64,000 nucleotides of DNA from Candidatus Moraniibacteriota bacterium (GCA_049303795.1 JBAQNM010000005.1:222381-286380), one strand, 5' to 3'; counted from the first letter of the stretch, positions 4,733-24,119 are shown. Numbers and translations: made by a program. Notes: generated by a model not told the origin, from the sequence alone.

Positions 4733-5299
4733 CTATCCCACAATCACTCTCGCCGCCCGAATCACCCTGTTATTAAGTTTATAGCCTTTCAGCACAACTT
4801 TTTTAATTTTATTTCCAGGCTCTTTTTCATCTTCTTCTTTTTTTGAGTCTTCCGCCTTTTGATTATCGGCAATTGCTTCGTGCAAATTCGGATCAAATTC
4901 ATCTCCCATTTTCACATCCATTTCAACAACTTCGTTTTCTTTCAAAATATTTTCCAATTGTTTTTGAATATACATTATTCCCACCACCCAAGCCGCCTCT
5001 TTTTGTTCTTCCGGAATATGCTCAGTAGCGCTACGGAAATTATCAATCACCGGCAACACTTGCAAAATTAAATCTTCCTTAATATATGCGCCGATATTTT
5101 TCTGATTTTCTTGTTGGCGTTTTTTATAATTCTCGAAATCAGAAAGACAACGCTTCCAGCCTTCCAGATATTCCTGCTCCTTGTTTTCAAAGACATCTTC
5201 GTTTTCAAGTTTTTCTGACACTTCAATGCTTTCTAATTTTTCTGCTTCAATATTTTCTTCAATTTTTTCATCTTCTTTTTTATTTTTTTTCTGCTTCAT
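4733..5299 (-). CDS. grpE: nucleotide exchange factor GrpE
   Basis: GrpE coiled-coil and beta-domain motifs (..YKKRQQENQKN..VLPVIDNF..GYKLNNRVIRAARVIV). Confidence 0.9.
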   Translation of the reverse strand: MKQKKNKKEDEKIEENIEAEKLESIEVSEKLENEDVFENKEQEYLEGWKRCLSDFENYKKRQQENQKNIGAYIKEDLILQVLPVIDNFRSATEHIPEEQKEAAWVVGIMYIQKQLENILKENEVVEMDVKMGDEFDPNLHEAIADNQKAEDSKKEEDEKEPGNKIKKVVLKGYKLNNRVIRAARVIVG

Positions 5300-12693: not shown

Positions 12694-13422
12694 TTATCTC
12701 AAGTAATGCTCCAGTGTATAAATCCAATTTTCATCATTTTCTCCATCAGCCTCTCTGGTTTTTATTTTTTCGTTCAATAACCATTGCAAATAATTGCGAT
12801 CACGCATTGCCACATCGGAAACTTTCATTCCGACATATTTCCCAAAATTAAATTTTTTCACAAGCACCGGACGCGCAGAAACGTTCAGCATTTCAGCAAT
12901 AACCGCTTCCTCGCTTCCAGCAACTTTTAACATCTTTTCAAAATAATGTTCAAATAATTTTTCCAACACACGAATATCACCCAGCGCGTTGTGCGCCGGC
13001 GCATCAAGAACATCCAGATCATGATAATAGCGCAAATATTGCATAGCATATCGAGGAATCTCCGCTTCAACATCCAAATATTGCGCCAACTTAAATGTAT
13101 CAATTGCTTGAGCAATTTCCAGGTTTTCCCGCCTGAGCATCTCCACATCAAACGGAGCATTATGCGCCACCAAAATATGCCCGGAAGAAAAAATTTCCAC
13201 TAAAGCTTTGTGCATTTCGGAATCAAGAAAAACTTCTTTATCGGCTACCATTTTATTGGTGATATGCGAAACAGCCATCGCATCAATTTCGATTGGCACG
13301 GGCGGTTTGAAAAGCGCTTCGGATTCCTGACCTTGAATTTTATAAGCCACTTGACACAAACGAGCTTCCGGACCGGTGCCGGTTGTTTCTGTATCTAAAA
13401 AAACTAATTTTGATTTATTCAT
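12694..13422 (-). CDS. DEDDh-family 3'-5' exonuclease (DnaQ/epsilon-like)
   Basis: Exo I motif FLDTETTG, Exo II motif HNAPFDVEML and Exo III motif HNALGDIRV. Confidence 0.7.
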   Translation of the reverse strand: MNKSKLVFLDTETTGTGPEARLCQVAYKIQGQESEALFKPPVPIEIDAMAVSHITNKMVADKEVFLDSEMHKALVEIFSSGHILVAHNAPFDVEMLRRENLEIAQAIDTFKLAQYLDVEAEIPRYAMQYLRYYHDLDVLDAPAHNALGDIRVLEKLFEHYFEKMLKVAGSEEAVIAEMLNVSARPVLVKKFNFGKYVGMKVSDVAMRDRNYLQWLLNEKIKTREADGENDENWIYTLEHYLR

Positions 13423-13492
13423 ATTTAAATTCTAACCTAAAAATTCTTTTTTAGCAAAATTTAAAAGGTCATTTATTTTTTATAAATGACCT

Positions 13493-13837
13493 TCATTCTA
13501 ACACTTCCCGCTGGTTGCAAAAACTGCAATCTTCCCCGATAACAACTAGCGTTCGTTCGATAATACCGACTAGACGCAAAAAATCATGACTAGAGCCTTG
13601 AAGCTCTATGCAAGTTCTGGCCTCTTGTCGTTCTGTAAGCAAGATTTCAATTTTCCGGTCTTTTCTCCAAATGCTACAACCCATGATAATTCCTCCACTG
13701 CCTCCAATATGTCCCAATGCCGATCCGCCTTGTATTCTTTCATCATATTCGACAACAATGCCACACGCCCTTAGGGCGTTAACCACCTCGATAACCGATT
13801 CAGCCACGAAAATTTCATGCCAATGATGCTTTTTCAT
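13493..13837 (-). CDS. hypothetical protein (Gly-rich HIGGSGGIIMG loop, C-terminal CSFC)
   Basis: ORF only; no family recognised. Confidence 0.3.
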   Translation of the reverse strand: MKKHHWHEIFVAESVIEVVNALRACGIVVEYDERIQGGSALGHIGGSGGIIMGCSIWRKDRKIEILLTERQEARTCIELQGSSHDFLRLVGIIERTLVVIGEDCSFCNQREVLE

Positions 13838-13971
13838 AGCTTACCTCCTTTATTTTTAAATGTACTTGATTTTGTTTATTTTTAATCCCTCCTATGAGTT
13901 ATTTTTTAGCATTCAGTCATTTTTTTTTCAAAATCATACTATCCTAGCACAAATAGCGATAAAAGCAAGCT

Positions 13972-14018
13972 TCCCCATAAAAAGAAAGGCGCTTAGCGTG
14001 TTTACACGACTAAGCGCC
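13972..14018 (-). terminator. intrinsic terminator downstream of the receiver-like gene cluster
   Basis: About 14-bp GC-containing stem (aggcgcttagcgtg..cacgactaagcgcct) followed on the minus strand by a T-run. Confidence 0.5.
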
Positions 14019-14050
14019 TAGATTAAACCAGTTTTCCTTTTTCCGAAAAA

Positions 14051-14413
14051 TCACTTCAACATAGAGGAGATTTTAGTCACAAGTTCTTCATCAGAAAATG
14101 GCCTTTCCAGGACGCCACAGCCTTCTGCGGTAGCGATGCTCCGCTTGCTGCTCACGCCAGAAATGCAAAGTATTCCGATTGGTTCTTTTTTTCGTTGAAT
14201 CTTTTTGACTTGATTGATATGATTAACCCCATCGGTAATTGACATTGTAAAATCAATCACGAATAGATCGACTTTGTTGCGAGGAGGATTTGTTTCGTTA
14301 AACTCAACAACTTCAAATCCTAGCTCAGTAAGAACATATTTGAGCGAGCCTGATTCACCTTTAACTAAGACGATGACTTTTTTCTTACTTCCCTTTTTTT
14401 TGGCCACTATCAT
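14051..14413 (-). CDS. stand-alone receiver (REC)-like domain protein, atypical N-terminal acidic pocket
   Basis: CheY-like layout: ..DLFVIDFTMSITDG.. (Asp at the phospho-acceptor position), ..GILCISG.., C-terminal ..GCGVLERPF; the N-terminal DD pocket is replaced by KGES. Confidence 0.5.
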   Translation of the reverse strand: MIVAKKKGSKKKVIVLVKGESGSLKYVLTELGFEVVEFNETNPPRNKVDLFVIDFTMSITDGVNHINQVKKIQRKKEPIGILCISGVSSKRSIATAEGCGVLERPFSDEELVTKISSMLK

Positions 14414-14452
14414 TCCCTCCTAGTTGAAAATTATAGTTTAGTTGCCTTGATT

Positions 14453-14659
14453 TTAAAACCATCGAGATAACGCCATTATTCTATCAACAAACCCTGAAGG
14501 CTTGTCAAAACCACTTGCTTTTTTGCAATTATCGCAGACGGCATGATCAGCATTTTCTTCATCTTCAGGGCTAAGTGAAACATGCACCCATACTTTATTT
14601 TCATTTTTCACTCGCCCGCAAAATGAGCAGACGAGAATTTTCTTGTTTGGATTAGTCAT
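14453..14659 (-). CDS. small zinc-ribbon protein (CxxC..CxxC)
   Basis: CSFCG and CDNCK pairs in 68 aa; overlaps the upstream REC gene by 4 nt, suggesting translational coupling. Confidence 0.45.
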   Translation of the reverse strand: MTNPNKKILVCSFCGRVKNENKVWVHVSLSPEDEENADHAVCDNCKKASGFDKPSGFVDRIMALSRWF

Positions 14660-15033
14660 ACCTCCTCCTCGAAATTAAACCGCCCGGGAAAGATCCTTTC
14701 CAGTTCTTGCTTGAAGTCATCGAAGTTGAATTTGCTTCTTAAAAATCCATTGCATCCATTTTCCAGATAATATTTCCGATGAAATCCAGAACTTGAAATA
14801 CCAATGATTTTTGTTTCCGGCTGAATCTCACTAGCCCTCTTCAAGAATTCAACCCCCTCTCCATTAAACATTTTCAAATCAATAATCAGCAAATCCACTT
14901 TTTCTTCAGAAATAACCTCCCAAGCCTTTTGGCAATCTAAGGAATAATGAAATCCATAATCTTCTTTTGATTTTAAAAATTTCTTTATAGCACTGACCAA
15001 TCGGGCCTGACCACAAACCAATAAAATTTTCAT
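14656..15033 (-). CDS. stand-alone receiver (REC)-like domain protein, DD pocket missing
   Basis: CheY-like ..VDLLIIDLKMFNGEG.., ..IIGISS.., ..GCNGFLRSKF; N-terminus is LLVCGQ instead of the DD motif. Confidence 0.55.
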   Translation of the reverse strand: MKILLVCGQARLVSAIKKFLKSKEDYGFHYSLDCQKAWEVISEEKVDLLIIDLKMFNGEGVEFLKRASEIQPETKIIGISSSGFHRKYYLENGCNGFLRSKFNFDDFKQELERIFPGRFNFEEEV

Positions 15034-15070
15034 CCCTCTTTTTACTCCCTCTTAATTTTAACCGCTTGCG

Positions 15071-15328
15071 TTATTGCTCTTTGTTATCCTTCGACATCGT
15101 AGCGATAGCCGTTTTTGCCAAGTTGGCTGCCAGCACTTTTTCCAAAAACATTGTTCCTTCCGGCATATCCAAATCAATTACAATTAAAGTCACTCTCTCG
15201 CCAGAATTAATTAAATCAAACGCCTCTTTAATTTCAGAAAAGAAAACCACGTCTTCATGATATAAGCGAAAACGATGAACTGCTTCTTTTTTTGCCTCAT
15301 CATCAACGCAAAATACTAAGGTTTTCAT
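15071..15328 (-). CDS. short (85-aa) receiver-like domain protein with an intact DDE pocket but truncated C-terminus
   Basis: VFCVDDE .. TLIVIDLDMPEG .. then ends, with no K-box or alpha-5 segment. Confidence 0.45.
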   Translation of the reverse strand: MKTLVFCVDDEAKKEAVHRFRLYHEDVVFFSEIKEAFDLINSGERVTLIVIDLDMPEGTMFLEKVLAANLAKTAIATMSKDNKEQ

Positions 15329-15432
15329 TTTTCCACCTCGCCTTCTTTCTATTTGATTGTCAAAGAAACAAAGAGCCCACCATTAGGCTCTCTGTGATAT
15401 ATAAACATACAATTTGACTCTGGTCAACAAAA

Positions 15433-16404
15433 TTACACGATTTTTGAATCATCCTCTGGTTCTATTGTTTCTTTCAGTTCCGGAGTTTTTCCGACTTTCT
15501 TTTTAAGAAAATGAAGTAAGATAAATTGTAAAATAATTGCGATAGCTATAGAGCTATACCAAAACCAAGAAAACTCGCGACACTCATCAAAGAAATACCA
15601 AAAAGCCACTGCCAGCACTGTCCAAGCTGCCGGGAATTTCCAGCCATAGTTCTCTTCGGTATATTTGCTTCGACTGTCCAGTCCAAGCGCACCGGCAAAA
15701 ACTACCAGCGCCAAAACCCAAATCCAGCTTGGCCAACTTTGACAAGCATCTTCTGTTCCAGCAATTTCCCCGCCGCCTTCTTCACCTTGCACACCACCAA
15801 CAGCAGATGTTGGAGTTGGCTCTTCATTTCCGGTAAAACCAGTTCTACCTTCCGCTGCCAAAATTTCCGCCTCTGTTCCAGCTCCGGCATTTTCCGATTC
15901 AATCGTAAAATCAATATCAAACTTAGTTTTCAGACCTTGATATTCATTGCCAGCATCTTCATCAAATTTAATTTTTATCTTATATCGCTCGCTTTCTCCG
16001 GTTGATAGATTATCCACATAAAGAGATTCGTCGTCTGCTTCCTTGAGATTCCAGCGATCACCAGCGCCACCGATTCGATAATCATTGTCTGAAGTGCGAA
16101 TAACATACAGCTTCAATTTTTTCGCTAATTTTTTATCCCCATTAACATCAAATTTAAAATAAAGATTAGTATCATCTGTTGTACTTCTATTTTTCACGCG
16201 AATTGTTTTGGAATCTTGCCAGCCGGGATAAATATTATCCGCATCAAAAATATCATCGCCATCGATATTTGTGCCCACCGGATATTCCACATCGATCTTA
16301 TCGACCGCCTTAGCTACATTTCCCAGAGATATAAAAGCTAAAACCAAACTCATCATGAGTAATGAAATTTTTCCTAATTTAAATTTTTCCATTCTATTTT
16401 TCAT
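15433..16404 (-). CDS. secreted protein with a beta-sandwich (TasA/camelysin-like?) N-domain, an acidic Gly-rich linker and three C-terminal TM helices
   Basis: Signal peptide, a ..IRVKNRSTTDDTNLYFKFDV.. beta-rich region, and a hydrophobic C-terminal anchor. Confidence 0.35.
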   Translation of the reverse strand: MKNRMEKFKLGKISLLMMSLVLAFISLGNVAKAVDKIDVEYPVGTNIDGDDIFDADNIYPGWQDSKTIRVKNRSTTDDTNLYFKFDVNGDKKLAKKLKLYVIRTSDNDYRIGGAGDRWNLKEADDESLYVDNLSTGESERYKIKIKFDEDAGNEYQGLKTKFDIDFTIESENAGAGTEAEILAAEGRTGFTGNEEPTPTSAVGGVQGEEGGGEIAGTEDACQSWPSWIWVLALVVFAGALGLDSRSKYTEENYGWKFPAAWTVLAVAFWYFFDECREFSWFWYSSIAIAIILQFILLHFLKKKVGKTPELKETIEPEDDSKIV

Positions 16405-16427
16405 AATTATATCAAATTATTTTCATT

Positions 16428-18059
16428 TTAACCTTGGGCTTCTTCTCCGGGATTATGATCTTCTTCTTTCTTAGCTTTTTCCTCCTCCTCTTTTTTAGCT
16501 TTTTCCTCGGCTTCTTTTTTCGCTTTTTCCTCTTCAGCTTTTTTCTCAGCCTCTAATTTAGCTTCTTCAGCCTTAGCTTTTGCTTCTGCCTCCAGCTTAG
16601 CCTTCTCTTTCGCTTCTGCTTCAGCCTTAGCTTTTTCCTCAGCTTCTAATTTCGCTTTTTCTTCTTCAATATTTTCATCTTCATCCTCAACATCAGAAGC
16701 AGGATCATTTTCTGGTTCATCAATAATAGGTTCTGGTGTTGGATTTACTTTCGGCTCTTCAGTTGGAGTTGGCTCGGGAGTTGGCGTTGCATCAGGAGTT
16801 GGAGTTGGAGTTACTTCTGCATTAGGAGTTTCAGTTGGAGTTGGAGTTACTTCCAAAGCTGGATCGACTTCTGAAGCCAGAGGTGGATCGGGAGTTGGAG
16901 TTGGAATTATTTCTTCTTCGCCCTCTAAAAGACCCAGCGCAACCAACAAATTAATATCACAACTTGGATTGTCATCAACTAAATCGCCATTTTTATCTAA
17001 ACACCACTCTTCAAAGAAATTCTTAAAATCATCGACTTCAAGACTTTGACTATTATCCTCTCCTGGAGTAGGAACGGGATCATACCAATCGCCTGTTCCG
17101 TCTGGATAACGAGCAAAAGATTTTCCTGGCCAAGTTTCGTCCCAAATTCCACCAGGCATCAACATATTTTCATTACCCCTTGTATTCAAAGCATCAAAAG
17201 CATCTGAGTCACTAGCTATCTCATAATCGTATGCGTCAATCAAATTAGCGCCAGCGCCAATCTCTCCGTCATAAAGACGAACAGAATCAGACCCATTATT
17301 ATTAAGAGCAAAATCCCCGTCACCGTTCCTAAAGACCACCAAGTGTCCACCGGCAGGAACAATCGATTCCCCGGAATCAAATGGATTATTGTCATTATTT
17401 CCATTACTATTTGAAATCAAAAGCTCGTGGGAATCGTTATTGTCATATAGATACCAACCACTAACATCAATATCTAAAGATCCATTGTTATATAACTCCA
17501 CCCATTCTCCTCCCGGTTTTGGCAAAGAATCACCAAGAATTGGGTCAGGCACAAATTCATTCAGCACTACCATCCAAGAAATTTCAAACTCATCGCTTTC
17601 ATCAAAAGCGGAAAGTAGATGCGAATCAGTTGCCGTTACCCTTACTTTGCAGTTATCAGAAATATCAGTCGGCACTGTCCAAGGATAACTTCCGTCATTA
17701 TTTGTTCCGGTTACAATATTTGTCCACAAATCACCGTCACAAGCATAATCAATACCAATAAGCATTCCAGCCGTTGCTGATGGATCGGAAGAATCAGCCG
17801 TCCATTCAATATCTTGAGATGATCCAACTTGCCATTCATCGTCATCTTCCGGACTAGTCACCTCAACTTCCGGCACTATCCAATATCCAGCGGAAAAAGC
17901 GTTGCCCGTTGATGCTACAGGAGAAGCATAGAAAGATCTGGTACCAGAAATTTGACGAAAGCTAAAAGCAAATATCAAAAACAAGCTCAAAACCGCCAAT
18001 CTTTCAAATGACTTAAAAATTCTTCTATTAATTGCTGATCTTCGGATTTTTTTCAACAT
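16428..18059 (-). CDS. secreted lamin-tail-domain (LTD) protein with a PT-rich linker and an EAKAK-repeat C-terminal tail
   Basis: LTD signature VVLNEFVPDP..GEWVELYNNG..DVSGWYLYD; low-complexity PTPTPD and (EAKAK)n regions. Confidence 0.6.
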   Translation of the reverse strand: MLKKIRRSAINRRIFKSFERLAVLSLFLIFAFSFRQISGTRSFYASPVASTGNAFSAGYWIVPEVEVTSPEDDDEWQVGSSQDIEWTADSSDPSATAGMLIGIDYACDGDLWTNIVTGTNNDGSYPWTVPTDISDNCKVRVTATDSHLLSAFDESDEFEISWMVVLNEFVPDPILGDSLPKPGGEWVELYNNGSLDIDVSGWYLYDNNDSHELLISNSNGNNDNNPFDSGESIVPAGGHLVVFRNGDGDFALNNNGSDSVRLYDGEIGAGANLIDAYDYEIASDSDAFDALNTRGNENMLMPGGIWDETWPGKSFARYPDGTGDWYDPVPTPGEDNSQSLEVDDFKNFFEEWCLDKNGDLVDDNPSCDINLLVALGLLEGEEEIIPTPTPDPPLASEVDPALEVTPTPTETPNAEVTPTPTPDATPTPEPTPTEEPKVNPTPEPIIDEPENDPASDVEDEDENIEEEKAKLEAEEKAKAEAEAKEKAKLEAEAKAKAEEAKLEAEKKAEEEKAKKEAEEKAKKEEEEKAKKEEDHNPGEEAQG

Positions 18060-18094
18060 AAGCTAATAAATTATCCTTTTATTCACTTCTATGC

Positions 18095-18703
18095 CTATTC
18101 TTCATTGTTGTCAACTGAATTATCTTTTTCCTTTTCAGCCTCTCCCTCATTTTCACTATTTTCTTTTTTATTCTCTTTGCGTTTTTTCACTCTTTTCCAA
18201 TAATCAATCTTTTTACCTATTTCTTTTTCTATCTTTCGCACTTCGTCATAAATGATTATTATCGCCGGAATTATGATGAGCAAAATCAATCCTTGCGGTG
18301 TTTTGGCATAATTTACCGGATAACCGAGCAGTGGAATTGCCAGAAAAGTTTTTCCAATGATACTATCTTCTTCAATTACCTCCCTATCCTCGCCATCGTT
18401 AGCATCTCCTTTGGTTTTGAAAGTAACCTCTCCGTCTTTTTCTGCTTTAGAAATCACTCGATGCGTGACTGTCGCTCTACCATCGCTAGTTGGAACGGTG
18501 ATAATGTCGCCTTCGTTATAATTTTCCTGCGATTTGACGAAAATCAGACTGCCCGTATGAATGGCCGGTTCCATCGAACCTGACAAAACTGTATAAATTT
18601 TATAATTCCCCGGAATTGGAAAGAACGAAAACGCCACCAGAATTCCAATCATAAGCAGACAAAACAGAATTGTATTAACTATTATCTTGAAAATCTTTTT
18701 CAT
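18095..18703 (-). CDS. sipW: signal peptidase I, SipW type (archaeal/ER-like)
   Basis: N-terminal TM helix followed by ..VLSGSMEPAIHTGSLIFV.. with the catalytic Ser in SGSMEP and a C-terminal TM helix. Confidence 0.8.
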   Translation of the reverse strand: MKKIFKIIVNTILFCLLMIGILVAFSFFPIPGNYKIYTVLSGSMEPAIHTGSLIFVKSQENYNEGDIITVPTSDGRATVTHRVISKAEKDGEVTFKTKGDANDGEDREVIEEDSIIGKTFLAIPLLGYPVNYAKTPQGLILLIIIPAIIIIYDEVRKIEKEIGKKIDYWKRVKKRKENKKENSENEGEAEKEKDNSVDNNEE

Positions 18704-18818
18704 TTTTGAAACTTAAATTACTTTTTATGTCCTGGCTCTGCTCACCCCGCCTTCGCCAGCTGGCGAATTGGCGGAGTGAAGAGAGATTGGAAAATTTTCA
18801 ATCTCCACTCAACTCAAA

Positions 18819-19496
18819 TTAATTTTGAGAAGCGTCTTGTTGTAATTCGAAAGTGAAAGTTGCATTAACAGTTTCACCTTGTGTTACTAAGTCTGTGTCA
18901 ACATAAGAATTCATAAAAAGATAAGCGGATGTTCCATGAGTAAGACCTTCGCTATTGCCATCAGCAGCAATTCTAACCTTCAATGTTCCTAGGGCAGCTA
19001 ACTCAGAAAGAGAAAGAGTTCCATCTAAATCTGTATCAGCACCAACAAAAGGAGCTCCATTCATATCAGTTACCAAATAGTCATTTCCAGCAGCAGGTGC
19101 TAGAATTTCTTCAACTAAATTTTCTGAATCAGTACCAGCTATTGAAGCACCGAATCTCAATCCATTACCAGCACCGGTTGGATAAAACTTAATTTCATCT
19201 GCCAAATCAGTGTCAGCATCAAGAGCAACAGTAATATTAACATGATGAGCATCGATTGTTCCAGCATTTTCAACTTGGAAAATTCTTTGTGGAATCACTG
19301 ATCCAGGGAATAAATTAGTTTCGTTAAAAACTGCTGTAGCTGTTGGATTTTGATCATTGATTTCCAAAATCATTGTTCCAGCAGCAAAAGTGTTATCTGG
19401 ACTTGTCACAGTGCTTGTGAAATATGAGTAGGTTGCTCCTCCGGCAATTGCAGCTACTGCCACAATCGCTACGAGGCTTAATAGAATTTTTTTCAT
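18819..19496 (-). CDS. TasA/CalY/camelysin-family secreted protein with a SipW-cognate signal peptide
   Basis: N-terminus ..AIAGGATYSYFTSTVTSPDNTFAAGTM.. matches the SipW-cognate class signal-peptide pattern (GGTxAYFSD..N.F.AG); located immediately upstream of sipW. Confidence 0.7.
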   Translation of the reverse strand: MKKILLSLVAIVAVAAIAGGATYSYFTSTVTSPDNTFAAGTMILEINDQNPTATAVFNETNLFPGSVIPQRIFQVENAGTIDAHHVNITVALDADTDLADEIKFYPTGAGNGLRFGASIAGTDSENLVEEILAPAAGNDYLVTDMNGAPFVGADTDLDGTLSLSELAALGTLKVRIAADGNSEGLTHGTSAYLFMNSYVDTDLVTQGETVNATFTFELQQDASQN

Positions 19497-20084
19497 AGTT
19501 TATTTATTATTAATTATTTATTAATTACTCCTCTGAAAAGCTTGCAAAAGATTTGCAAACTATCGACCAGAGGTTCCAGACACTTTAGGTAGTCTTTGTT
19601 CACCCTCGACCAAGAATTGACTTTTGGTTTTCACCAATTAAATTTTTTAAACCCTCCTCTTGGAGGCACTTGCCCTTCTCTCGCGAAGGGCTTAAGTTAT
19701 TTAATTGAATAAAGAACAAAAAAAGCCAATCGTTAATTGTTATATTAAAATAACAGTCAACGATTGACTTTCAAAAGAGGAAACATTATTTCTCACCCAA
19801 GAAAATAATTCCATATCTTTAATTTACTAGCTATTCAGATTTAATTTATTTTTATAATTTTTCACTCCTAGGGCAATACTATCATTTCGAGATTTATTGT
19901 CAAGGAAAGTTGTCCACAGTTTTGGCTTGACAAAAGGGAAATTTGTGGTTTAAATTATTTTTGTGAAAATCTATCCGTAGTTTTTTTGACAAAACACATT
20001 TCCAATGCTTAAATATCACATTCGGTTCTTTTTAACGCTATTCAGCGAAATAGCACCCATACTAAACTTTTACAAGGAGACATC

Positions 20085-20450
20085 ATGATTAAGCGAATGA
20101 CGAATTTGACTCTTGCGGAGATAAGAAGACTACTGGAAGGAAAAGATCTCTCCCCCTGCAAAGGCAGTGCCAAAGGAATGATCTCAAACACACTTCCTCC
20201 TGGTGCGCTGTTAAATGAAATCGGCGCCATATTTATTAATGGCGACAATGAAGCGGAGAGTGATCTGGCTTCGCTCTTCGAAGGTGAATCTCATGGAACT
20301 AAATGCCTGGGTTACTTTTACCTTTCACAAAGAAGGCACGAGCTGGAACTAAAAACCCTCGACTTGATCATAGAGTTCGAAAGCGACCCCGCTAATGCGG
20401 AAACTATCGATTCTATAAAAACATTGATCAGGGCCCAATCCGGCAGATAA
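20085..20450 (+). CDS. hypothetical protein, GC-shifted, with a strong Shine-Dalgarno
   Basis: AAGGAGA 6 nt upstream of ATG; about 45% GC versus about 35% in the surroundings. Confidence 0.4.
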   Translation: MIKRMTNLTLAEIRRLLEGKDLSPCKGSAKGMISNTLPPGALLNEIGAIFINGDNEAESDLASLFEGESHGTKCLGYFYLSQRRHELELKTLDLIIEFESDPANAETIDSIKTLIRAQSGR

Positions 20451-20480
20451 AAATCGCCATCTCTCTTAACCAAAACCCAC

Positions 20481-20583
20481 GCCCGAGACTAACGTCCCGG
20501 GCTTCTTTATTTATAAACTCACGATGTTACAAAAAAATAAAAGCCCATACCGCAATGCGATATGGACTTCGTTTTATTTTTCG
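20481..20583. terminator. two hairpin and T/A-run terminators serving the convergent genes 20085..20450 (+) and 20601..21761 (-)
   Basis: gcccg..cgggc followed by ttctttattt, and a second stem (cccataccgc..gcgatatgg) flanked by A-run and T-run on both sides. Confidence 0.5.
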
Positions 20584-20600
20584 AAAAAAGGCAGATAAGC

Positions 20601-21761
20601 TTAACGCTCAATGCCCAGTTTTTTAAGGATTTCCGGATCTGGGAAATTGTCGAACTGCATGCCAAATGACAATCCCATCATATCCAGAAGCTCCCCAACT
20701 TCTTTCAAGGATTTACGGCCAAAATTTTTCGTCTCCATCAAGTTCTCTCTGGTTCTTTGAGCCAGCTCACCGACAAGCTTGAAACCTCCTCCTCCGCCAC
20801 CGAGACAGTTTTTTGCCCGGATTGACAGATCAGTTTCTCCGATCAAGGTATACAGCCCCTCTACCGGAAGAACAACCCTTATATCTTCCTTGATGATCGG
20901 TGGGCCGCTGGCTATTATCTGATACAGCCCTTGCAATTTATTTTTTCTTACCAGATATCGCAGTTTCCGGAGGGCTTTATGGAAAATCTGCCTGATCCTT
21001 TCTTCGGTAACCATCAAATCATCCCCTATTGCAGAGTAAGTTTTCTGCTCACAGCCAAGGCCACAACGTCTCCTGACTACCAGGATTTCCCGCTTAGTTA
21101 AATTTTCCAGCACGCTTTCGATAGTGCTAACGGCATTGAGTTTCTCATCCCAGATCGCTCCGATCTTTCGCCTTTGCGAGTTGGCCCAGCTTTTTCGCAG
21201 ATCTTTTTTGAGATCTAGCGCATTTTGCGGGACATCCGACTCATCACTTTTCGTGTAAAGATTGAGATTATCATGCCAAAGCTCAGAAGCCTCATCTGAT
21301 TGGTTTCTGCCAAAAATCATTTCAATCAGATTAACATAAGTCTGATCTTCGGCTCTGGCTTGAGGTCGGCTCAATGTCGAGGCAATATCATCGAGAATCA
21401 AAAACTCTTTTTCGACCTCCTCGATACCTAGATACTCTCCCAGCAATTCCTTGAGCATATCATCGAGATCGCTTGATATTACAAGCTTATGACGCGCAGT
21501 CATCAGACATGCATAGAACTTCAGCGCCGATGCGAAAACCTCCTCTTTAGTTTTCTTTTTAGTTCGCTTTAATCCAAGGCGATCAAGATCCAACCTAAGT
21601 GTTGTCGGATTGAGATTCAACCTCTCGGAAATCCAACGGCTTGCGATGCCGATGGAATGAAGAACTGCGATGATTGGATGCCTTTTTTCCTGGTTATCTT
21701 TAATTTCTCCCATCTTGATATCCCCTTTTCCATGAGTATGATTGAGTGTTATGAAAATCAC
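20601..21761 (-). CDS. chimeric transcription factor: sigma-70 region 3/4-like segment fused to an RNA polymerase alpha-subunit C-terminal domain (alpha-CTD)-like domain
   Basis: LTKREILVVRRRCGLGCEQKTYSAIGDDLMVTEERIRQIFHKALRKLR matches sigma-70 region 4.2. LSIRAKNCL..LVGELAQRTRENLMETKNFGRKSLKEVGELLDMMGLSFGM..NFP closely matches the alpha-CTD helix-hairpin-helix of E. coli ([48 protein letters not shown]..NWP). No sigma region 2 is seen. GC-shifted. Confidence 0.6.
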   Translation of the reverse strand: MIFITLNHTHGKGDIKMGEIKDNQEKRHPIIAVLHSIGIASRWISERLNLNPTTLRLDLDRLGLKRTKKKTKEEVFASALKFYACLMTARHKLVISSDLDDMLKELLGEYLGIEEVEKEFLILDDIASTLSRPQARAEDQTYVNLIEMIFGRNQSDEASELWHDNLNLYTKSDESDVPQNALDLKKDLRKSWANSQRRKIGAIWDEKLNAVSTIESVLENLTKREILVVRRRCGLGCEQKTYSAIGDDLMVTEERIRQIFHKALRKLRYLVRKNKLQGLYQIIASGPPIIKEDIRVVLPVEGLYTLIGETDLSIRAKNCLGGGGGGFKLVGELAQRTRENLMETKNFGRKSLKEVGELLDMMGLSFGMQFDNFPDPEILKKLGIER

Positions 21762-21940
21762 TTATCCGTTTTTTTATATATTCATTTGTTCAGGTACAAT
21801 CATCTATACTAACGCGTGATAGTAACATAATTATATAAATTTGTCAAACAAAAATTTAACTAGTAAAAAATTTCTTGAGTAAAGTTTGGCTTAATGATAA
21901 TATAATAGAAAGTAGGCATACTTAAATTAATCTTACCAAG

Positions 21941-23713
21941 ATGACAAATGACAAAAAAAATCTCAACAGTACCGAAATAAAAACTACTAATGCTGACCGA
22001 ACAAAAGCCAAAAAAGATCCAACGGAACAAAGATCGGAAAAATTGGACAAGATTAATCATAGCTTGTCTTCTTTTAACGCTCAAAATAATCAAAATATTG
22101 AAGAAGTTGAAAGTACTAGAAAACGAGAATTTGAAAGCAAGCTAGATCAACTAGGAATTGCAGAAATTCCAGTCAGCGAAGAAACGAAAAAGTTGATTCG
22201 TCAAAATATGGTGAGCGATACGATTGATCATGCGAAAAAAGAAAACGAACGTTTCGATCGACTTAAGATAGACAAAATAATTCTAGAGAATATAGACCAG
22301 CCAGATTCACAATTGATAAAAAGGCTTTTCGCAAAAAATGATGCTGAAATATCTGAAGATGTATTTCATAAAAGTCTAGAAAAATTAAGCAAGACAAATA
22401 TAAAATTAGAACCTCGCGAACGAATAGAAATTTTCCGCGAAGCGCTAGAATATTTTAGTAGGGAGGAAAAAGTGATCTACCCTGTTGGTCATGCTACAGG
22501 CTCTGATTCTCTTAGAATGATCATAAAAGATGGGTCTATTAAAGAAGGTGGCACCGGAGAACACGGAGAAGCTGCGGGACAATCTCGCGGAGGAAAACAG
22601 CAAGGCGTTTCCGTGGCGGAAATGAATCACGAAATGGCCGATTATGTCGAAATTTTTTATGCAAGAATGGCAGCAAATAGAGAAATTACAAAAGAAGCAT
22701 TAGAAATTGACGCAGATATTATTGATGGAAAAAATCCAATAGAAGACTTTATAGAAATTTATGTAGAGTTTACAGACACTGATAAGCTTCTAGGATCCAT
22801 GGCGAATAGAAGTGATAATGATATTGATTCTATAAAACTAAAAATCGCTCAAGAAATTGGAAAAAAACCTCGTGAAATAACTCATGAAGATATTAAAAAA
22901 AGCAAAATACTAGAGGAAATACTTTTTGGCTTCATAAAAAAAGCGGCGGGAAGAAAGCACTACATGACTGCAGAAAGAGCAAGTAGGGATTATGTCGCAT
23001 TTGATTCTATTATTAAAAACTGTGAGAAATGTAAGAATGGTGAATTTCCCGAAATAACCTTTAATGGAAAAATATATAAAGATCCTGATGAAATTATTAA
23101 TCTAAAACATGGAATATACGAACTTGAAGATGATGATCTGCCAGAAAAGAAAATACTGATTGAAATGCAGAACGAATACGCCTATTTTCTTCGACCATAT
23201 TTTGATCAAGAAAGTGGAGAATGGATGGAGCCACGCTATTCCATTTCTGAATTTAGATCTAGGAGTAGTGAAATATTGGGAGAATATGCAAAATGGATAA
23301 AAGAAGGAGAAACTTTCAAAACATTAACGATGCTTCACCCGCTAGAAAGCGACTCCGAAGATGTAAAAAGAAAAAAAATAGCGAGATTAAAGGAATTAGA
23401 TAATCAATTTCCTAGCATATTAGTCATTGAAGCAGATGAATATAAAAAAAATGGCCTAACGCATACGGAAAAAGAAGGAAGTCGTCCAGTCCCCTTTTTT
23501 GAGGTTGAAGAAAGAATTATGTCTGATATTTCTCTTTCAAACATTAAAGAAATAATAATTCCAAGATCAAAAATCGATGAAATAAAAAAGTGGCTGACAG
23601 AATCTGGAATCAAAGAAAACAATATGCCAAGAATGGTCGCATTTGAATACTTTGAAATTAAACGCCTATTAAACCATCAATTAAAAGAGCTTACAAGAAA
23701 AATCCAAGCGTAG
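21941..23713 (+). CDS. hypothetical 590-aa Lys/Glu-rich protein
   Basis: Long ORF with no recognised family; the stop codon overlaps the 3' end of tRNA-Glu on the opposite strand. Confidence 0.45.
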   Translation: MTNDKKNLNSTEIKTTNADRTKAKKDPTEQRSEKLDKINHSLSSFNAQNNQNIEEVESTRKREFESKLDQLGIAEIPVSEETKKLIRQNMVSDTIDHAKKENERFDRLKIDKIILENIDQPDSQLIKRLFAKNDAEISEDVFHKSLEKLSKTNIKLEPRERIEIFREALEYFSREEKVIYPVGHATGSDSLRMIIKDGSIKEGGTGEHGEAAGQSRGGKQQGVSVAEMNHEMADYVEIFYARMAANREITKEALEIDADIIDGKNPIEDFIEIYVEFTDTDKLLGSMANRSDNDIDSIKLKIAQEIGKKPREITHEDIKKSKILEEILFGFIKKAAGRKHYMTAERASRDYVAFDSIIKNCEKCKNGEFPEITFNGKIYKDPDEIINLKHGIYELEDDDLPEKKILIEMQNEYAYFLRPYFDQESGEWMEPRYSISEFRSRSSEILGEYAKWIKEGETFKTLTMLHPLESDSEDVKRKKIARLKELDNQFPSILVIEADEYKKNGLTHTEKEGSRPVPFFEVEERIMSDISLSNIKEIIIPRSKIDEIKKWLTESGIKENNMPRMVAFEYFEIKRLLNHQLKELTRKIQA

Positions 23714-23782
23714 CCTCAAGGGGAATCGGACCCCTGTTTTCAGGATGAGAACCTGATGTCCTAGCCGCTAGACGATGAGGCC
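23711..23782 (-). tRNA. tRNA-Glu (anticodon CTC)
   Basis: Reverse complement reads GGCCTCATCGTCTAGCGGCTAGGACATCAGGTTCTCATCCTGAAAACAGGGGTCCGATTCCCCTTGAGGCTA: 7-bp acceptor stem, D-arm, anticodon loop TTCTCAT and T-arm GGTCCGATTCC. No encoded CCA. Confidence 0.85.
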
Positions 23783-23825
23783 AATAAATTTAGTACTAAG
23801 TAGAGTTTATCTTTAGTTGGACGAT

Positions 23826-23913
23826 AGACCTGCCCGCAATGCTACGCCCGCCAGCAACGCTTCGCGTAGCAATGCGGGCTGGCATAGCGTTGCAGGCGGG
23901 CGATGAGGCCAAT
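23826..23913. repeat. GC-rich nested inverted-repeat (pseudoknot-topology) element followed by a 13-nt direct repeat of the tRNA-Glu 5' end
   Basis: 16-nt stem A (23832-47) with A' (23864-79), and 16-nt stem B (23845-60) with B' (23887-902), each with one mismatch, arranged A-B-A'-B'. cgatgaggccaat occurs at 23773-85 (the tRNA 5' end) and again at 23901-13. Confidence 0.6.
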
Positions 23914-24119
23914 GAAACATATTTTAAAATAAAACCTACAAAATTCAGTTTAGCAACAATCTTTAAAAATATCAAGAGTTTAAAAATTGCATTGGTTAAT
24001 ATATTCTGACTTGCTTCGCCATATTCAATAAATAAAAAACAAGCATTATCTCAACCAAGATAACGCTTGTTTTATTTTTTCAGCCAGATTAAGACCCAGC
24101 TAACTCATCAATCCCTAAT

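What the first reader, a model, noticed from the sequence alone, without database searches (positions are those of the whole stretch)
15433..19496. SipW-type signal peptidase with TasA/camelysin-like and lamin-tail-domain secreted proteins: a putative surface-fibre or biofilm-matrix locus
Seen in sequence:
- A SipW-like SPase I with the SGSMEP catalytic Ser region sits directly downstream of a protein whose N-terminus (AIAGGATYSYFTSTVTSPDNTFAAGTM) fits the SipW-cognate signal-peptide class of TasA/CalY/camelysin.
- Upstream lie a lamin-tail-domain (LTD) secreted protein with a PT linker and (EAKAK)n tail, and a further secreted protein with a triple-TM C-terminal anchor.
Established knowledge: in Bacillus, tapA-sipW-tasA builds amyloid-like matrix fibres.
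Inference: this is an analogous fibre or S-layer-like assembly system in an AT-rich, ultra-small-genome host, possibly relevant to episymbiotic attachment.
Basis: partly seen in the sequence, partly recalled or inferred. Interest (0 to 1): 0.6.

Follow-up and report, generated by a model that had tools for sequence, protein, structure and literature searches.

The report
Membrane-anchored TasA-type fibre operon in Moranbacteria
An ultra-small candidate-phyla-radiation bacterium carries a four-gene operon that most likely builds a cell-anchored protein fibre related to the Bacillus biofilm fibre TasA, and the same gene set recurs across this poorly understood group, giving a testable candidate for how these cells make surface appendages.

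Summary
On the minus strand, 19496-15433 holds four co-directional genes. They encode a TasA-family protein (225 aa) with a SipW-cognate signal peptide, an ER/archaeal-type Ser-His signal peptidase (SipW type, not LepB), a 543-aa Ig plus lamin-tail-domain protein, and a 323-aa protein with three C-terminal TM helices. NCBI already names the first three; the host is a Candidatus Moraniibacteriota MAG.

New here:
- **Gene 4.** It is a second TasA-superfamily domain. It lacks the N-terminal donor strand and ends in an undescribed 3-TM anchor module, which also terminates large adhesin-like proteins.
- **Gene 3.** It carries a TasA-like SipW-type signal and donor-strand N-terminus, followed by non-TasA domains. 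This is the logic of TapA.
- **Gene order.** The order TasA-like, SipW, large protein, acceptor-only protein recurs in Moran-, Sacchari-, Levy-, Woyke-, Daviesbacteria, Paceibacterota and WWE3.
- **Leader.** The operon has a conserved leader with a short uORF running into a covarying intrinsic terminator.

Best model, inferred and untested: a donor-strand-exchange fibre with tip or initiator (gene 3), shaft (gene 1) and membrane anchor or terminator (gene 4). It is a new variant of a known kind. Interest is moderate (0.55).

The parts
19876..19933 (-). Promoter region. It holds the conserved upstream box TTGTCAAGCCAAAA (19920-19933), the 9-mer TGTGGACAA (19910-19918; the reverse complement of a DnaA-box-like TTGTCCACA, and a perfect TGTGGATAA in relatives), a -35 TTGACA (19898-19903) and an extended -10 TGaTAGTAT.
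   Evidence: Promoter scan, 10 of 12 matches with TG. The block is conserved in L001, L014, L004, L039 and L003 although the g1 proteins are only 43-86% identical. A pattern scan of metagenomes found it upstream of TasA-like operons and also of other secreted-protein genes. There is one copy in the window.
19718..19829 (-). Leader RNA element. It comprises a 24-codon uORF (19740-19814, MELFSWVRNNVSSFESQSLTVILI), the small hairpin P1, and a hairpin of about 23 bp plus a U-run (about 19718-19772) that looks like an intrinsic terminator or attenuator.
   Evidence: RNAalifold consensus, with 15 of 32 pairs compensatory in 7 sequences. Model R1 finds untrained copies upstream of TasA-like genes in L024, L003 and L029. 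Over 11 instances, 92% of cells are canonical pairs and 23 of 32 pairs show compensatory change. Each of the 7 training leaders holds exactly one ORF of at least 15 codons, and it runs into the hairpin; related peptides occur in L024 and L003. No Rfam match.
18819..19496 (-). g1, the TasA-family major subunit. It has a SipW-type signal peptide (aa 1-24, predicted cleavage ATYS|YF), a donor-strand segment (aa 25-37, YFTSTVTSPDNTF) and a jelly-roll body (aa 38-225).
   Evidence: NCBI names it 'TasA family protein'. The N-terminal 36 residues have pLDDT below 50 in the monomer model, as expected for a free donor strand. The position of the cleavage site is inferred from the motif.
18736..18785 (-). 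GC-rich stable hairpin in the 115-nt gap between g1 and g2. It has no U-run. It is a candidate transcript stabiliser or partial terminator that would favour excess g1.
   Evidence: The 136-nt region 18695-18830 that contains it folds at -44.2 kcal/mol, z = -4.56, and 0 of 200 shuffles fold as well. The function is inferred.
18095..18703 (-). g2, a SipW-type (ER/archaeal-type) signal peptidase I. Predicted active-site residues are Ser43, His81 and Asp100, with N- and C-terminal TM segments.
   Evidence: TIGR02228 scores 124.3 against a cut-off of 51.85, and the LepB-type model falls below its cut-off. Alignment to human SEC11C/A. Residues checked.
16428..18059 (-). g3, a candidate tip or initiator protein. 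It has a SipW-type signal plus a donor-strand-like N-terminus (aa 1-58; ...SGTRS|FYASPVASTGNAFSAGYW), a Kre9_KNH Ig-like domain (69-137), an LTD (164-279), a PT linker (384-442) and a charged EAKAK helix-like tail (465-535). It has no membrane anchor.
   Evidence: Pfam. hhalign of g3 N-termini against the g1 family gives prob 95.3%, E 2.3e-8, aligning g3 27-65 with g1 9-47. Four of 7 orthologues hit TIGR04088 weakly; the window copy does not. The TasA-like HMM matches g3 residues 23-58.
15433..16404 (-). g4, an acceptor-only TasA-superfamily protein with a membrane anchor. It has a generic AxA signal peptide (aa 1-33, AKA|VD), a TasA-like beta-sandwich (about 34-175; nt 15880-16305), a linker, and a 3-TM anchor module (aa 215-306; nt 15487-15762) with conserved Cys221 and Cys275 and a Lys-rich tail.
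   Evidence: No Pfam or NCBIfam hit. hhalign of the g4 family against the g1 family gives prob 97.3%, E 1.9e-11, starting at g1 residue 37, which is after the donor strand. The best PDB matches of the AF2 model are the TasA fibre 8AUR (E 6e-6) and archaeal AbpA 7UEG (7e-4), then donor-strand pilins. The anchor module recurs at the C-termini of 548-1909-aa adhesin-like proteins.
15368..15395 (-). Intrinsic terminator after g4, marking the end of the operon.
   Evidence: A 12-bp stem followed by a T-rich tail. The hairpin is present in both the MFE and the centroid fold.

Best explanation
The locus is one operon: promoter at about 19900, leader, g1, g2, g3, g4, terminator at about 15370. It most likely builds a cell-anchored extracellular fibre of the TasA type by donor-strand exchange.

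**Shown by homology**
- g1 is a TasA-family subunit with a SipW-class signal peptide.
- g2 is the dedicated ER-type signal peptidase that would remove that signal peptide.
- g4 carries a TasA-like beta-sandwich plus a 3-helix membrane anchor.
- g3 carries the same kind of N-terminus as g1, followed by Ig and lamin-tail domains.

**Inferred mechanism**
1. After SipW cleavage, g3 offers an N-terminal donor strand but has no acceptor domain. It primes the first g1, as TapA does for TasA, and ends up at the distal tip with its Ig/LTD domains exposed.
2. Each g1 extends its own donor strand (Y25 to F37) into the next g1.
3. The chain ends when a g1 donor strand inserts into g4. g4 has an acceptor domain but no donor strand, and it sits in the membrane through its 3-TM module, so it both terminates and tethers the fibre.

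A uORF-plus-terminator leader probably makes expression conditional.
For: - **g1 membership in the TasA family.** Pfam and NCBIfam cut-offs are passed. The family profile hits B. subtilis TasA at E 3e-10. TasA is the best fold match.
- **SipW type of g2.**
- **g4 as a TasA paralogue.** hhalign gives 97.3%, E 1.9e-11, and the alignment begins after the donor-strand segment. Foldseek's top hits are the TasA fibre, AbpA and other donor-strand pilins. The whole g4 family has a generic A-x-A signal followed directly by '(D/E)KIDVEY' and lacks the YF(S/T)D...N.F.AG motif.
- **g3 N-terminus.** It aligns ungapped with the g1 signal and donor strand (hhalign 95.3%, E 2.3e-8).
- **Anchor module.** It ends many SpaA, SdrD_B, HYR, Big and LTD surface-type proteins, including the gene next to the operon in L039. 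This argues for a surface-tethering role.
- **Conserved gene order** across CPR lineages.
- **Literature.** The TasA donor strand is mature residues 28-38. The TapA N-terminus resembles it and is proposed to give the first donor strand, and a TasA subunit cannot extend its strand until it is itself complemented (PMC9674648). C. perfringens sipW-bsaA-bsaB-bsaC has a major subunit, a minor TasA-like protein and a large vWA protein, and its fibres are membrane-anchored (PMC11580942).
Against: - No experiment and no multimer model supports the proposed order of subunits; polarity and roles are deduced from sequence only.
- Fold matches are modest (TM 0.31-0.48), and the models have pLDDT of about 75.
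- The window's own g3 does not reach TIGR04088 even at E 10.
- In more distant CPR loci, gene 3 keeps part of a TasA-like body, with HMM positions up to about 104-141 matched, so 'donor-only' holds only for the Moranbacteria subgroup.
- In Levy-, Woyke- and Daviesbacteria, gene 4 ends in RTX-like GGxGxD repeats rather than TM helices, so membrane anchoring is not universal.
- g4 might self-complement its groove permanently.
Confidence: 0.6

Rival explanations
1. The locus makes a released matrix fibre, as in Bacillus biofilms. g1 polymerises into free extracellular fibres. g4 is a membrane-bound assembly factor or nucleator, or an unrelated surface protein, rather than the fibre's anchor. g3 is an independent secreted adhesin or DNA-binding protein.
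For: B. subtilis TasA fibres are largely a shared matrix component (PMC9674648). In some CPR lineages gene 4 has no TM anchor. The g1-g2 hairpin suggests a large excess of g1 over the other products.
Against: g4's TasA-like domain and the strict g1-SipW-g3-g4 synteny argue for a direct partnership. The g3 N-terminus mimics the g1 donor strand. The g4 anchor module is used by many adhesin-like surface proteins.
Confidence: 0.2
2. The locus encodes an S-layer-like or envelope sheet, or simply a set of unrelated SipW-processed surface proteins, with no donor-strand polymer. SipW only provides specialised secretion of proteins that have aromatic residues after the cleavage site.
For: SipW is needed because LepB cleaves TasA-type sites poorly when Phe is at P2' (abstract of PMC10269814). 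The LTD and Ig domains and the long charged tail of g3 would also fit an envelope protein.
Against: The g1 family keeps the whole TasA mature domain, including the donor-strand region and the C-terminal QG...F.F..Q motif. The best fold neighbours of g4 are all donor-strand-exchange filament subunits. No SLH or known S-layer domain was found.
Confidence: 0.12
3. g1 is a camelysin-type (Peptidase M73) cell-surface metalloprotease rather than a structural subunit.
For: The Pfam family that g1 hits is named Peptidase_M73, 'Camelysin metallo-endopeptidase'.
Against: g1 has no HExxH motif. The family name is considered a likely misidentification of CalY as a peptidase (PMC11580942). The solved relatives are structural fibres.
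Confidence: 0.03

Closest known systems
Bacillus subtilis tapA-sipW-tasA operon (TasA fibres; PDB 5OF1, 8AUR)
   Same: There is a dedicated ER-type SipW next to a TasA-family subunit with the SipW-cognate signal peptide. An accessory protein has an N-terminus that mimics the subunit's donor strand (TapA there, g3 here). The predicted fold is a jelly-roll with a disordered N-terminal strand.
   Different: The gene order differs (g1-sipW-g3-g4). g3 has no TapA homology and carries Ig and LTD domains. A fourth gene encodes an acceptor-only TasA paralogue with a 3-TM anchor, which Bacillus lacks. The host is a CPR bacterium. Regulation appears to go through a uORF/terminator leader; no SinR-type regulator was seen in the locus.
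Clostridium perfringens sipW-bsaA-bsaB-bsaC (PMC11580942)
   Same: Both are four-gene SipW operons with a major TasA-like polymer subunit, a second minor TasA-like protein implicated in anchoring (LPXTG in most strains) and a large adhesin-type protein (vWA there, Ig/LTD here). BsaA fibres are reported to be membrane-anchored. The donor-strand Asn (N35) is conserved in g1.
   Different: The anchor is a 3-TM module, not LPXTG/sortase. At position 74 (same residue number as BsaA Lys74; no g1-BsaA alignment was made) the window's g1 has Gln (Q74) and close homologues have Lys, so intermolecular isopeptide bonding is not predicted here. No type IV pilus dependence is known. TIGR04090 (BsaA family) scores far below its cut-off (16 against 60).
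Archaeal bundling pili AbpA/AbpB of Pyrobaculum calidifontis (PDB 7UEG; PMC9245690)
   Same: The subunit is a TasA-superfamily donor-strand filament subunit, and AbpA is the second-best fold match of g4. AbpB is a proposed initiator or adhesin that provides a strand.
   Different: The archaeal cluster has no dedicated signal peptidase, and no membrane-anchored acceptor-only paralogue is described. Sequence similarity is detectable only by fold.
Chaperone-usher pili (Pap/Fim; tip adhesin, rod, PapH terminator)
   Same: The logic is the same: a tip protein, a homopolymeric shaft and a terminator or anchor subunit that cannot propagate the chain. Fold neighbours include CfaB, FimA and PapA.
   Different: There is no chaperone, no usher and no outer membrane. 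The chemical polarity is mirrored: here the tip is donor-only and the anchor is acceptor-only. The two systems are not homologous at the sequence level.

Membership tests
TasA/CalY/camelysin family (PF12389) - g1 | Match to the family model above the curated cut-off | tested here: met
   PF12389 scores 48.4 bits against 22.5, but covers only residues 2-91. The family profile A1 hits B. subtilis TasA 5OF1/8AUR at E 3e-10 over profile positions 31-218.
TasA/CalY/camelysin family (PF12389) - g1 | SipW-dependent-type signal peptide (TIGR04088) | tested here: met
   29.2 bits against a cut-off of 19, residues 9-41.
TasA/CalY/camelysin family (PF12389) - g1 | TasA-like jelly-roll fold | tested here: met
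TasA/CalY/camelysin family (PF12389) - g1 | Polymerisation by N-terminal donor-strand exchange | not testable with these tools
   Only indirect evidence exists. The segment aligned to the TasA donor-strand region is present, and residues 5-36 are low-confidence in the monomer model.
SipW / ER-archaeal-type signal peptidase I (TIGR02228) - g2 | Model score above cut-off and Ser-His (not Ser-Lys) catalytic residues | tested here: met
   TIGR02228 scores 124.3 against 51.85. S43 (SGSMEP), H81 (THRV) and D100 (GDAN) align with human SEC11C/A.
Bacillus SipW equivalog (NF046067) - g2 | Equivalog cut-off of 190 bits | tested here: not met
   125.2 bits, below 190. g2 is the same type of enzyme but not an equivalog of Bacillus SipW.
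Bacterial LepB-type signal peptidase I (TIGR02227) - g2 | Model score above cut-off; Ser-Lys dyad | tested here: not met
   27.4 bits against 47. His occupies the general-base position.
TapA-like initiator - g3 | N-terminus resembling the major subunit's signal and donor strand, followed by a non-TasA body | tested here: met
   hhalign gives 95.3%, E 2.3e-8, aligning g3 27-65 with g1 9-47. The downstream domains are Kre9_KNH and LTD.
TapA-like initiator - g3 | Homology to TapA itself, or a TIGR04088 hit above cut-off | tested here: not met
   No TapA-related family was found. The window g3 has no TIGR04088 hit at E up to 10, and 4 of 7 orthologues hit only weakly, best E 0.002. g3 works like TapA but is not a member of that family.
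Lamin tail domain (PF00932) - g3 | Model score above cut-off | tested here: met
   47.5 bits against 34.3, residues 164-279.
TasA superfamily - g4 N-terminal domain | Detectable homology or shared fold with TasA-family subunits | tested here: met
   hhalign against the g1 family gives 97.3%, E 1.9e-11. Foldseek's best hits are the TasA fibre 8AUR (6e-6) and AbpA 7UEG (7e-4). However, there is no PF12389 hit and no PDB hit by sequence profile.
TasA superfamily - g4 N-terminal domain | SipW-cognate signal and donor strand | tested here: not met
   g4 has a generic A-K-A|V-D signal, and the alignment to g1 starts at g1 residue 37. It is therefore classed as acceptor-only.
BsaA-type isopeptide-linked fibres | Asn (donor strand), Lys and Glu triad (N35, K74, E56 in BsaA) | tested here: inconclusive
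   g1 has N35, which is nearly invariant in the family, but Q74. Close homologues have K74 and more distant ones do not. No direct alignment to BsaA could be made. TIGR04090 scores 16 bits against 60.
Sortase-anchored Gram-positive pili | LPXTG sorting signal and a pilus-specific sortase in the locus | tested here: not met
   No sortase gene was found among the ORFs scanned on either side of the operon (12694-15328 and 20085-23713) and none of the four proteins hits a sortase family; no LPXTG seen by eye in the printed translations of g1, g3 and g4 (no pattern search run).

The most novel reading that the evidence does not exclude
CPR bacteria possess a self-contained three-part donor-strand-exchange pilus with a defined architecture. 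A donor-only adhesin sits at the tip, a TasA-like subunit forms the shaft, and an acceptor-only TasA paralogue embedded in the membrane by a previously undescribed 3-TM anchor domain acts as terminator and tether. The same anchor domain replaces LPXTG on many large CPR adhesins. Expression is gated by a new leader-peptide/terminator attenuator. On this reading, the appendage would be a second filament class, beside type IV pili, available for attachment of these episymbionts to hosts or surfaces.
Probability: 0.35. Interest if true: 0.75.

Novelty: new variant of a known kind. Interest (0 to 1): 0.55.

Why it matters
CPR/Patescibacteria are a very large, mostly uncultivated part of bacterial diversity, and their life on host cells depends on surface structures that are largely unknown apart from type IV pili.

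- TasA-family proteins were known only as a Pfam distribution note in this group (PMC9245690).
- A conserved operon with an explicit, testable tip-shaft-anchor logic would give cryo-ET and genetics in cultivable relatives a concrete target. A related cassette occurs in a Saccharibacteria MAG.
- It would extend donor-strand-exchange fibres to a new bacterial lineage and add a sortase-independent membrane-anchor module for surface proteins.
- The conserved uORF/terminator leader is a candidate new cis-regulatory element in organisms for which almost no regulation is known.

Tried and rejected
**Searches that gave nothing**
- Single-sequence phmmer of g1 against PDB gave nothing relevant. Only the family profile reaches TasA.
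- The g4 family profile against PDB sequences gave only a chance enolase hit.
- PHROGs gave nothing useful, and g3 against PDB gave only a low-complexity match to internalin K.
- Rfam at gathering threshold, and at E up to 1 on the leader, found no known RNA family. Only chance miRNA/snoRNA hits appeared.
- A homology search with the isolated g4 anchor fragment found nothing, because of the limits of the word index.
- Cluster look-up of the large anchor-bearing proteins returned no taxonomy. Their CPR origin is shown only for L039.

**Readings considered and rejected**
- The metalloprotease reading of PF12389 was rejected: g1 has no HExxH, and the literature regards the family name as a misidentification.
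- The upstream promoter box as a general promoter of the genome was rejected, because the window holds only one copy.
- Substitutions in the uORF were inspected by eye across codon positions. They showed no third-position excess, so translation of the uORF is not demonstrated.

Full report
**1. What is there**

Between 19496 and 15433, four ORFs lie head to tail on the minus strand:
- g1: 18819-19496, 225 aa.
- g2: 18095-18703, 202 aa.
- g3: 16428-18059, 543 aa.
- g4: 15433-16404, 323 aa.

The gaps between them are 115, 35 and 23 nt. A sigma-70-like promoter with an extended -10 lies at 19903-19876, and an intrinsic terminator lies at 15395-15368, just after g4. The window has 32-41% GC. All four proteins are identical to proteins of Candidatus Moraniibacteriota MAGs in NCBI. 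There they are named 'TasA family protein', 'signal peptidase I', 'lamin tail domain-containing protein' and 'hypothetical protein'. The one slip is that the LTD protein and the 3-TM protein are transcriptionally downstream of the peptidase, not upstream.

**2.

*g1.*
- It passes PF12389 (48.4 against 22.5 bits) and the SipW-cognate signal model TIGR04088 (29.2 against 19).
- A profile of g1 and 19 homologues (A1) hits B. subtilis TasA (5OF1, 8AUR) at E 3e-10 over the whole mature domain.
- The AF2 model (pLDDT 75.4; residues 5-36 below 50) has TasA 5OF2/5OF1 as its two best Foldseek matches in the PDB (E 1.4e-4, prob 1.0, TM 0.42-0.48).
- There is no HExxH motif, so the 'camelysin protease' name does not apply.

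*g2.*
- It passes the archaeal/ER-type signal peptidase model (124.3 against 51.85) and fails the LepB-type model (27.4 against 47).
- Its closest solved relatives are human SEC11C/A, with S43 (SGSMEP), H81 (THRV) and D100 (GDAN) aligned.

Neither refutation condition is met.

**3.

g4 has no Pfam or NCBIfam match. Its family consists of 45 word-index hits, all unnamed or 'hypothetical', and those with a taxon label come from Moranbacteria, Patescibacteria or Parcubacteria. It aligns to the g1 family by profile-profile comparison at 97.3% probability, E 1.9e-11. The shared motifs are N(I/L)xPG...V.N.G/S and GN.YQG...F.I.F.

The AF2 model of g4 (pLDDT 75.6) is a beta-sandwich (about 36-172) followed by three helices (226-250, 256-272, 279-306). 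Its best PDB matches are the TasA fibre 8AUR (E 6e-6) and the archaeal bundling pilin AbpA 7UEG (7e-4). Next come other donor-strand-exchange filament subunits: CfaB, CS17, FimA, PapA, the Sulfolobus 0406 filament and Pyrodictium cannulae.

The hhalign alignment starts at g1 residue 37. g4 and all its relatives have an ordinary A-x-A signal peptide followed directly by (D/E)KIDVEY. They lack the YF(S/T)D...N.F.AG segment. In TasA that segment is the donor strand, mature residues 28-38 (PMC9674648). g4 is therefore a TasA-superfamily acceptor domain without a donor strand, fixed to the membrane.

**4. g3**

After a basic, hydrophobic signal region, the N-terminus of g3 reads ...SGTRSFYASPVASTGNAFSAGYW. 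It aligns without gaps to g1's GGATYSYFTSTVTSPDNTFAAGTM. Profile-profile comparison of seven g3 N-termini with the g1 family gives 95.3%, E 2.3e-8. Four of the seven hit TIGR04088 weakly, but the window copy does not. An Ig-like Kre9_KNH domain follows immediately, then an LTD, a PT linker and a charged EAKAK tail. There is no TasA body and no anchor.

This is the logic of TapA. TapA's N-terminus resembles the TasA donor strand and is proposed to supply the first strand (PMC9674648). There is no homology to TapA itself.

**5. Conservation**

- The order TasA-like, SipW, large protein with cognate-type N-terminus, g4-like protein is found in other Moranbacteria (L001/L005, L014, L039, L038, L037, L004, L013).
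- It is also found in Parcubacteria-group MAGs (L003).
- With more divergent members, it occurs in Saccharibacteria (L017), Paceibacterota (L018), Levybacteria (L019, L025), Woykebacteria (L020), WWE3 (L023), Daviesbacteria (L026) and unnamed MAGs.
- In the distant lineages, gene 3 retains the first half of a TasA body.
- In Microgenomates, gene 4 ends in RTX-like GGxGxD repeats rather than TM helices. The theme is conserved, but the anchoring solution varies.
- An HMMER scan of 1.84 billion cluster representatives with the g4 profile gives 1903 hits at E up to 1e-3 and 453 at E up to 1e-10.

**6. The anchor module**

Many hits match only profile positions of about 170-305, and they do so at the extreme C-terminus of proteins of 548-1909 aa. 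These proteins carry HYR, SdrD_B, SpaA-type prealbumin, Big, cadherin-like, LTD or beta-helix domains. Those are the domain types that in Firmicutes usually end in LPXTG.

The aligned module reads ...VAGxE..C(Q/S)(S/E)WPxWxW-TM1-(basic loop)-TM2-FWYFFDxCRExxWF-TM3-(Lys-rich tail), with two conserved Cys (221 and 275 in g4). On the predicted topology, both Cys lie outside the membrane. One such adhesin (1345 aa) sits directly upstream of the TasA operon in the closest relative, L039. No Pfam or NCBIfam model covers the module. It looks like an undescribed surface-protein membrane anchor, which supports the reading that g4 tethers something to the cell.

**7. Mechanism (inferred)**

The model combines section 3, section 4 and the published rule that a TasA subunit cannot extend its own strand until its groove is complemented:
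1. SipW (g2) cleaves g1 and g3 at the cognate site. For g1 this is predicted at ATYS|YF, by analogy with TasA and CalY (the CalY mature N-terminus is recalled from memory).
2. The donor-only g3 complements the first g1.
3. g1 subunits then polymerise head to tail.
4. The chain is captured and terminated when a g1 strand enters the acceptor-only, membrane-embedded g4.

This places the Ig/LTD protein at the distal tip and g4 at the base.

The stable GC-rich hairpin between g1 and g2 would fit an excess of the shaft subunit. The closest operon in the literature is C. perfringens sipW-bsaA-bsaB-bsaC. It has a major subunit, a minor TasA-like protein that carries LPXTG in most strains, and a large vWA protein, and its fibres are reported to be membrane-anchored (PMC11580942).

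The BsaA isopeptide triad is not supported here. g1 has the conserved N35 but Q74, while several close homologues have K74.

None of the assembly steps has been tested. I put 0.6 on the cell-anchored fibre model as a whole, and higher on the narrower statement that this is a SipW-processed TasA-family polymer.

**8. Regulation (noticed, partly followed up)**

The roughly 400-nt leader is conserved at the DNA level between loci whose g1 proteins are only 43-57% identical. It contains:
- (i) An upstream box, TTGTCAAGCCAAAA, followed by TGTGGA(T/C)AA, which is the reverse complement of the DnaA-box consensus (recalled from memory), just before the -35.
- (ii) A 22-39-codon uORF, which is 24 codons (MELFSWVRNNVSSFESQSLTVILI) in the window. 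In all seven training leaders it is the only ORF of at least 15 codons.
- (iii) A small hairpin, then a terminator hairpin of about 23 bp with a U-run, into whose 5' arm the uORF runs.
- (iv) A conserved GGTCGAGGGTG...CTACC.AAAGTG box about 60-130 nt before the start codon.

RNAalifold supports both hairpins. A covariance model built from seven leaders finds untrained copies upstream of TasA-like genes in L024, L003 and L029, weakly in L012, and a second copy in L030. Over 11 instances, 92% of cells are canonical pairs and 23 of 32 pairs show compensatory changes. That alignment is fitted to the model, so it leans towards the structure.

A metagenome scan for the promoter box found the module upstream of small Cys-rich secreted proteins as well (L030, L031), and the promoter box alone upstream of an epimerase (L033). 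No Rfam family matches.

The simplest reading is translation-coupled transcription attenuation. An independent sRNA gene upstream of a second promoter is not excluded. Coding of the uORF is not demonstrated.

**9. Novelty**

Wang et al. 2022 noted only that PF12389 occurs in Patescibacteria (PMC9245690). Four full-text searches found no description of the cassette, of the acceptor-only anchored paralogue, of the anchor module or of the leader.

The system is a new variant of a known kind, the TasA/SipW fibre. It is not a new kind. Its link to episymbiosis is plausible but unsupported by any data here.

Noticed in passing
window 19718-19933 (minus strand); also L001:5628-5852, L014:3661-3900, L039:5500-5732, L003:3400-3640, L024:2740-3006: A conserved promoter and leader module precedes the operon. 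It has the box TTGTCAAGCCAAAA, a DnaA-box-like 9-mer TGTGGA(T/C)AA, a -35/-10 pair, a 22-39-codon uORF (ME[IL]FF.V[KR]K...), a small hairpin and a covarying terminator hairpin of about 23 bp. No Rfam family matches. It is a candidate leader-peptide attenuator or sRNA.
   Followed up: partly
window 19581-19611 (minus strand); L001, L014, L039, L003, L024, L030 at equivalent positions: A second conserved leader block, GGTCGAGGGTG..(about 10 nt)..CTACC.AAAGTG, lies 60-130 nt before the g1 start codon. In this subgroup g1 has no obvious Shine-Dalgarno sequence next to its ATG. The function of the block is unknown.
   Followed up: no
L030:353-800 and 5160-5270; L031:742-1106; L033:2638-2840: The same promoter box, and in L030 and L031 the whole leader element, also precede genes for small Cys-rich secreted proteins. 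The promoter box alone precedes an NAD-dependent epimerase-like gene in L033. The module is therefore not exclusive to TasA operons.
   Followed up: partly
window 15487-15762 (g4 aa 215-306); L039:1398-5435; P0138, P0141, P0143, P0146, P0160, P0140, P0170: The 3-TM C-terminal module of g4 (VAGxE..CxSWPxWxW ... FWYFFDxCRE..WF, with two conserved Cys) also ends many adhesin-like proteins of 548-1909 aa carrying HYR, SdrD_B, SpaA, Big, cadherin, LTD or beta-helix domains. It also occurs as short stand-alone proteins, for example L004:7899-8390. No Pfam or NCBIfam model covers it.
   Followed up: partly
window 18736-18785 (minus strand): A very stable GC-rich hairpin without a U-run lies between g1 and g2 (the 136-nt region containing it folds at -44 kcal/mol, z -4.6). 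It may set the ratio of g1 to g2-g4.
   Followed up: partly
window 14051-15328 (minus strand): Three receiver-domain-only proteins (85, 125 and 120 aa; two score below the Pfam cut-off) and a 68-aa Cys-rich zinc-ribbon-like protein lie directly downstream of the operon terminator. Receiver-only genes also follow g4 in L001, L003 and L039, so they may be regulatory partners.
   Followed up: partly
window 20601-21761 (minus strand): A 386-aa protein combines sigma-70 region 4 (PF04545) with an RNA polymerase alpha C-terminal domain (PF03118). This is an unusual fusion, located just upstream of the operon region.
   Followed up: no
window 19275-19277 (g1 codon 74); alignment A1: g1 has Gln at position 74, where its closest homologues (P0002-P0008) have Lys. 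Asn35 in the donor strand is nearly invariant. In C. perfringens BsaA, N35-K74 forms an intermolecular isopeptide bond, so relatives may cross-link their fibres while this organism may not.
   Followed up: no
L019:7013-8113, L020:7007-8050, L025:7004-8005, L026:697-1521: In Levy-, Woyke- and Daviesbacteria, the fourth gene of the cassette has the TasA-like acceptor domain but ends in RTX-like GGxGxD calcium-binding repeats and a C..C-E(L/V/P) terminus instead of TM helices.
   Followed up: no
window 21941-23713 (+ strand) and 20085-20450 (+ strand): Two plus-strand ORFs (590 aa and 121 aa) have no Pfam match. They sit in the only stretch of the window where GC skew turns positive (22001-24000), next to tRNA-Glu (23710-23782).
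   Followed up: no
L001:4663-5463, L004:1401-2345, L037:10798-11664, L038:221-847: A CAP-domain (PF00188) secreted-protein gene lies close to the TasA cassette in several relatives, but not in the window.
   Followed up: no
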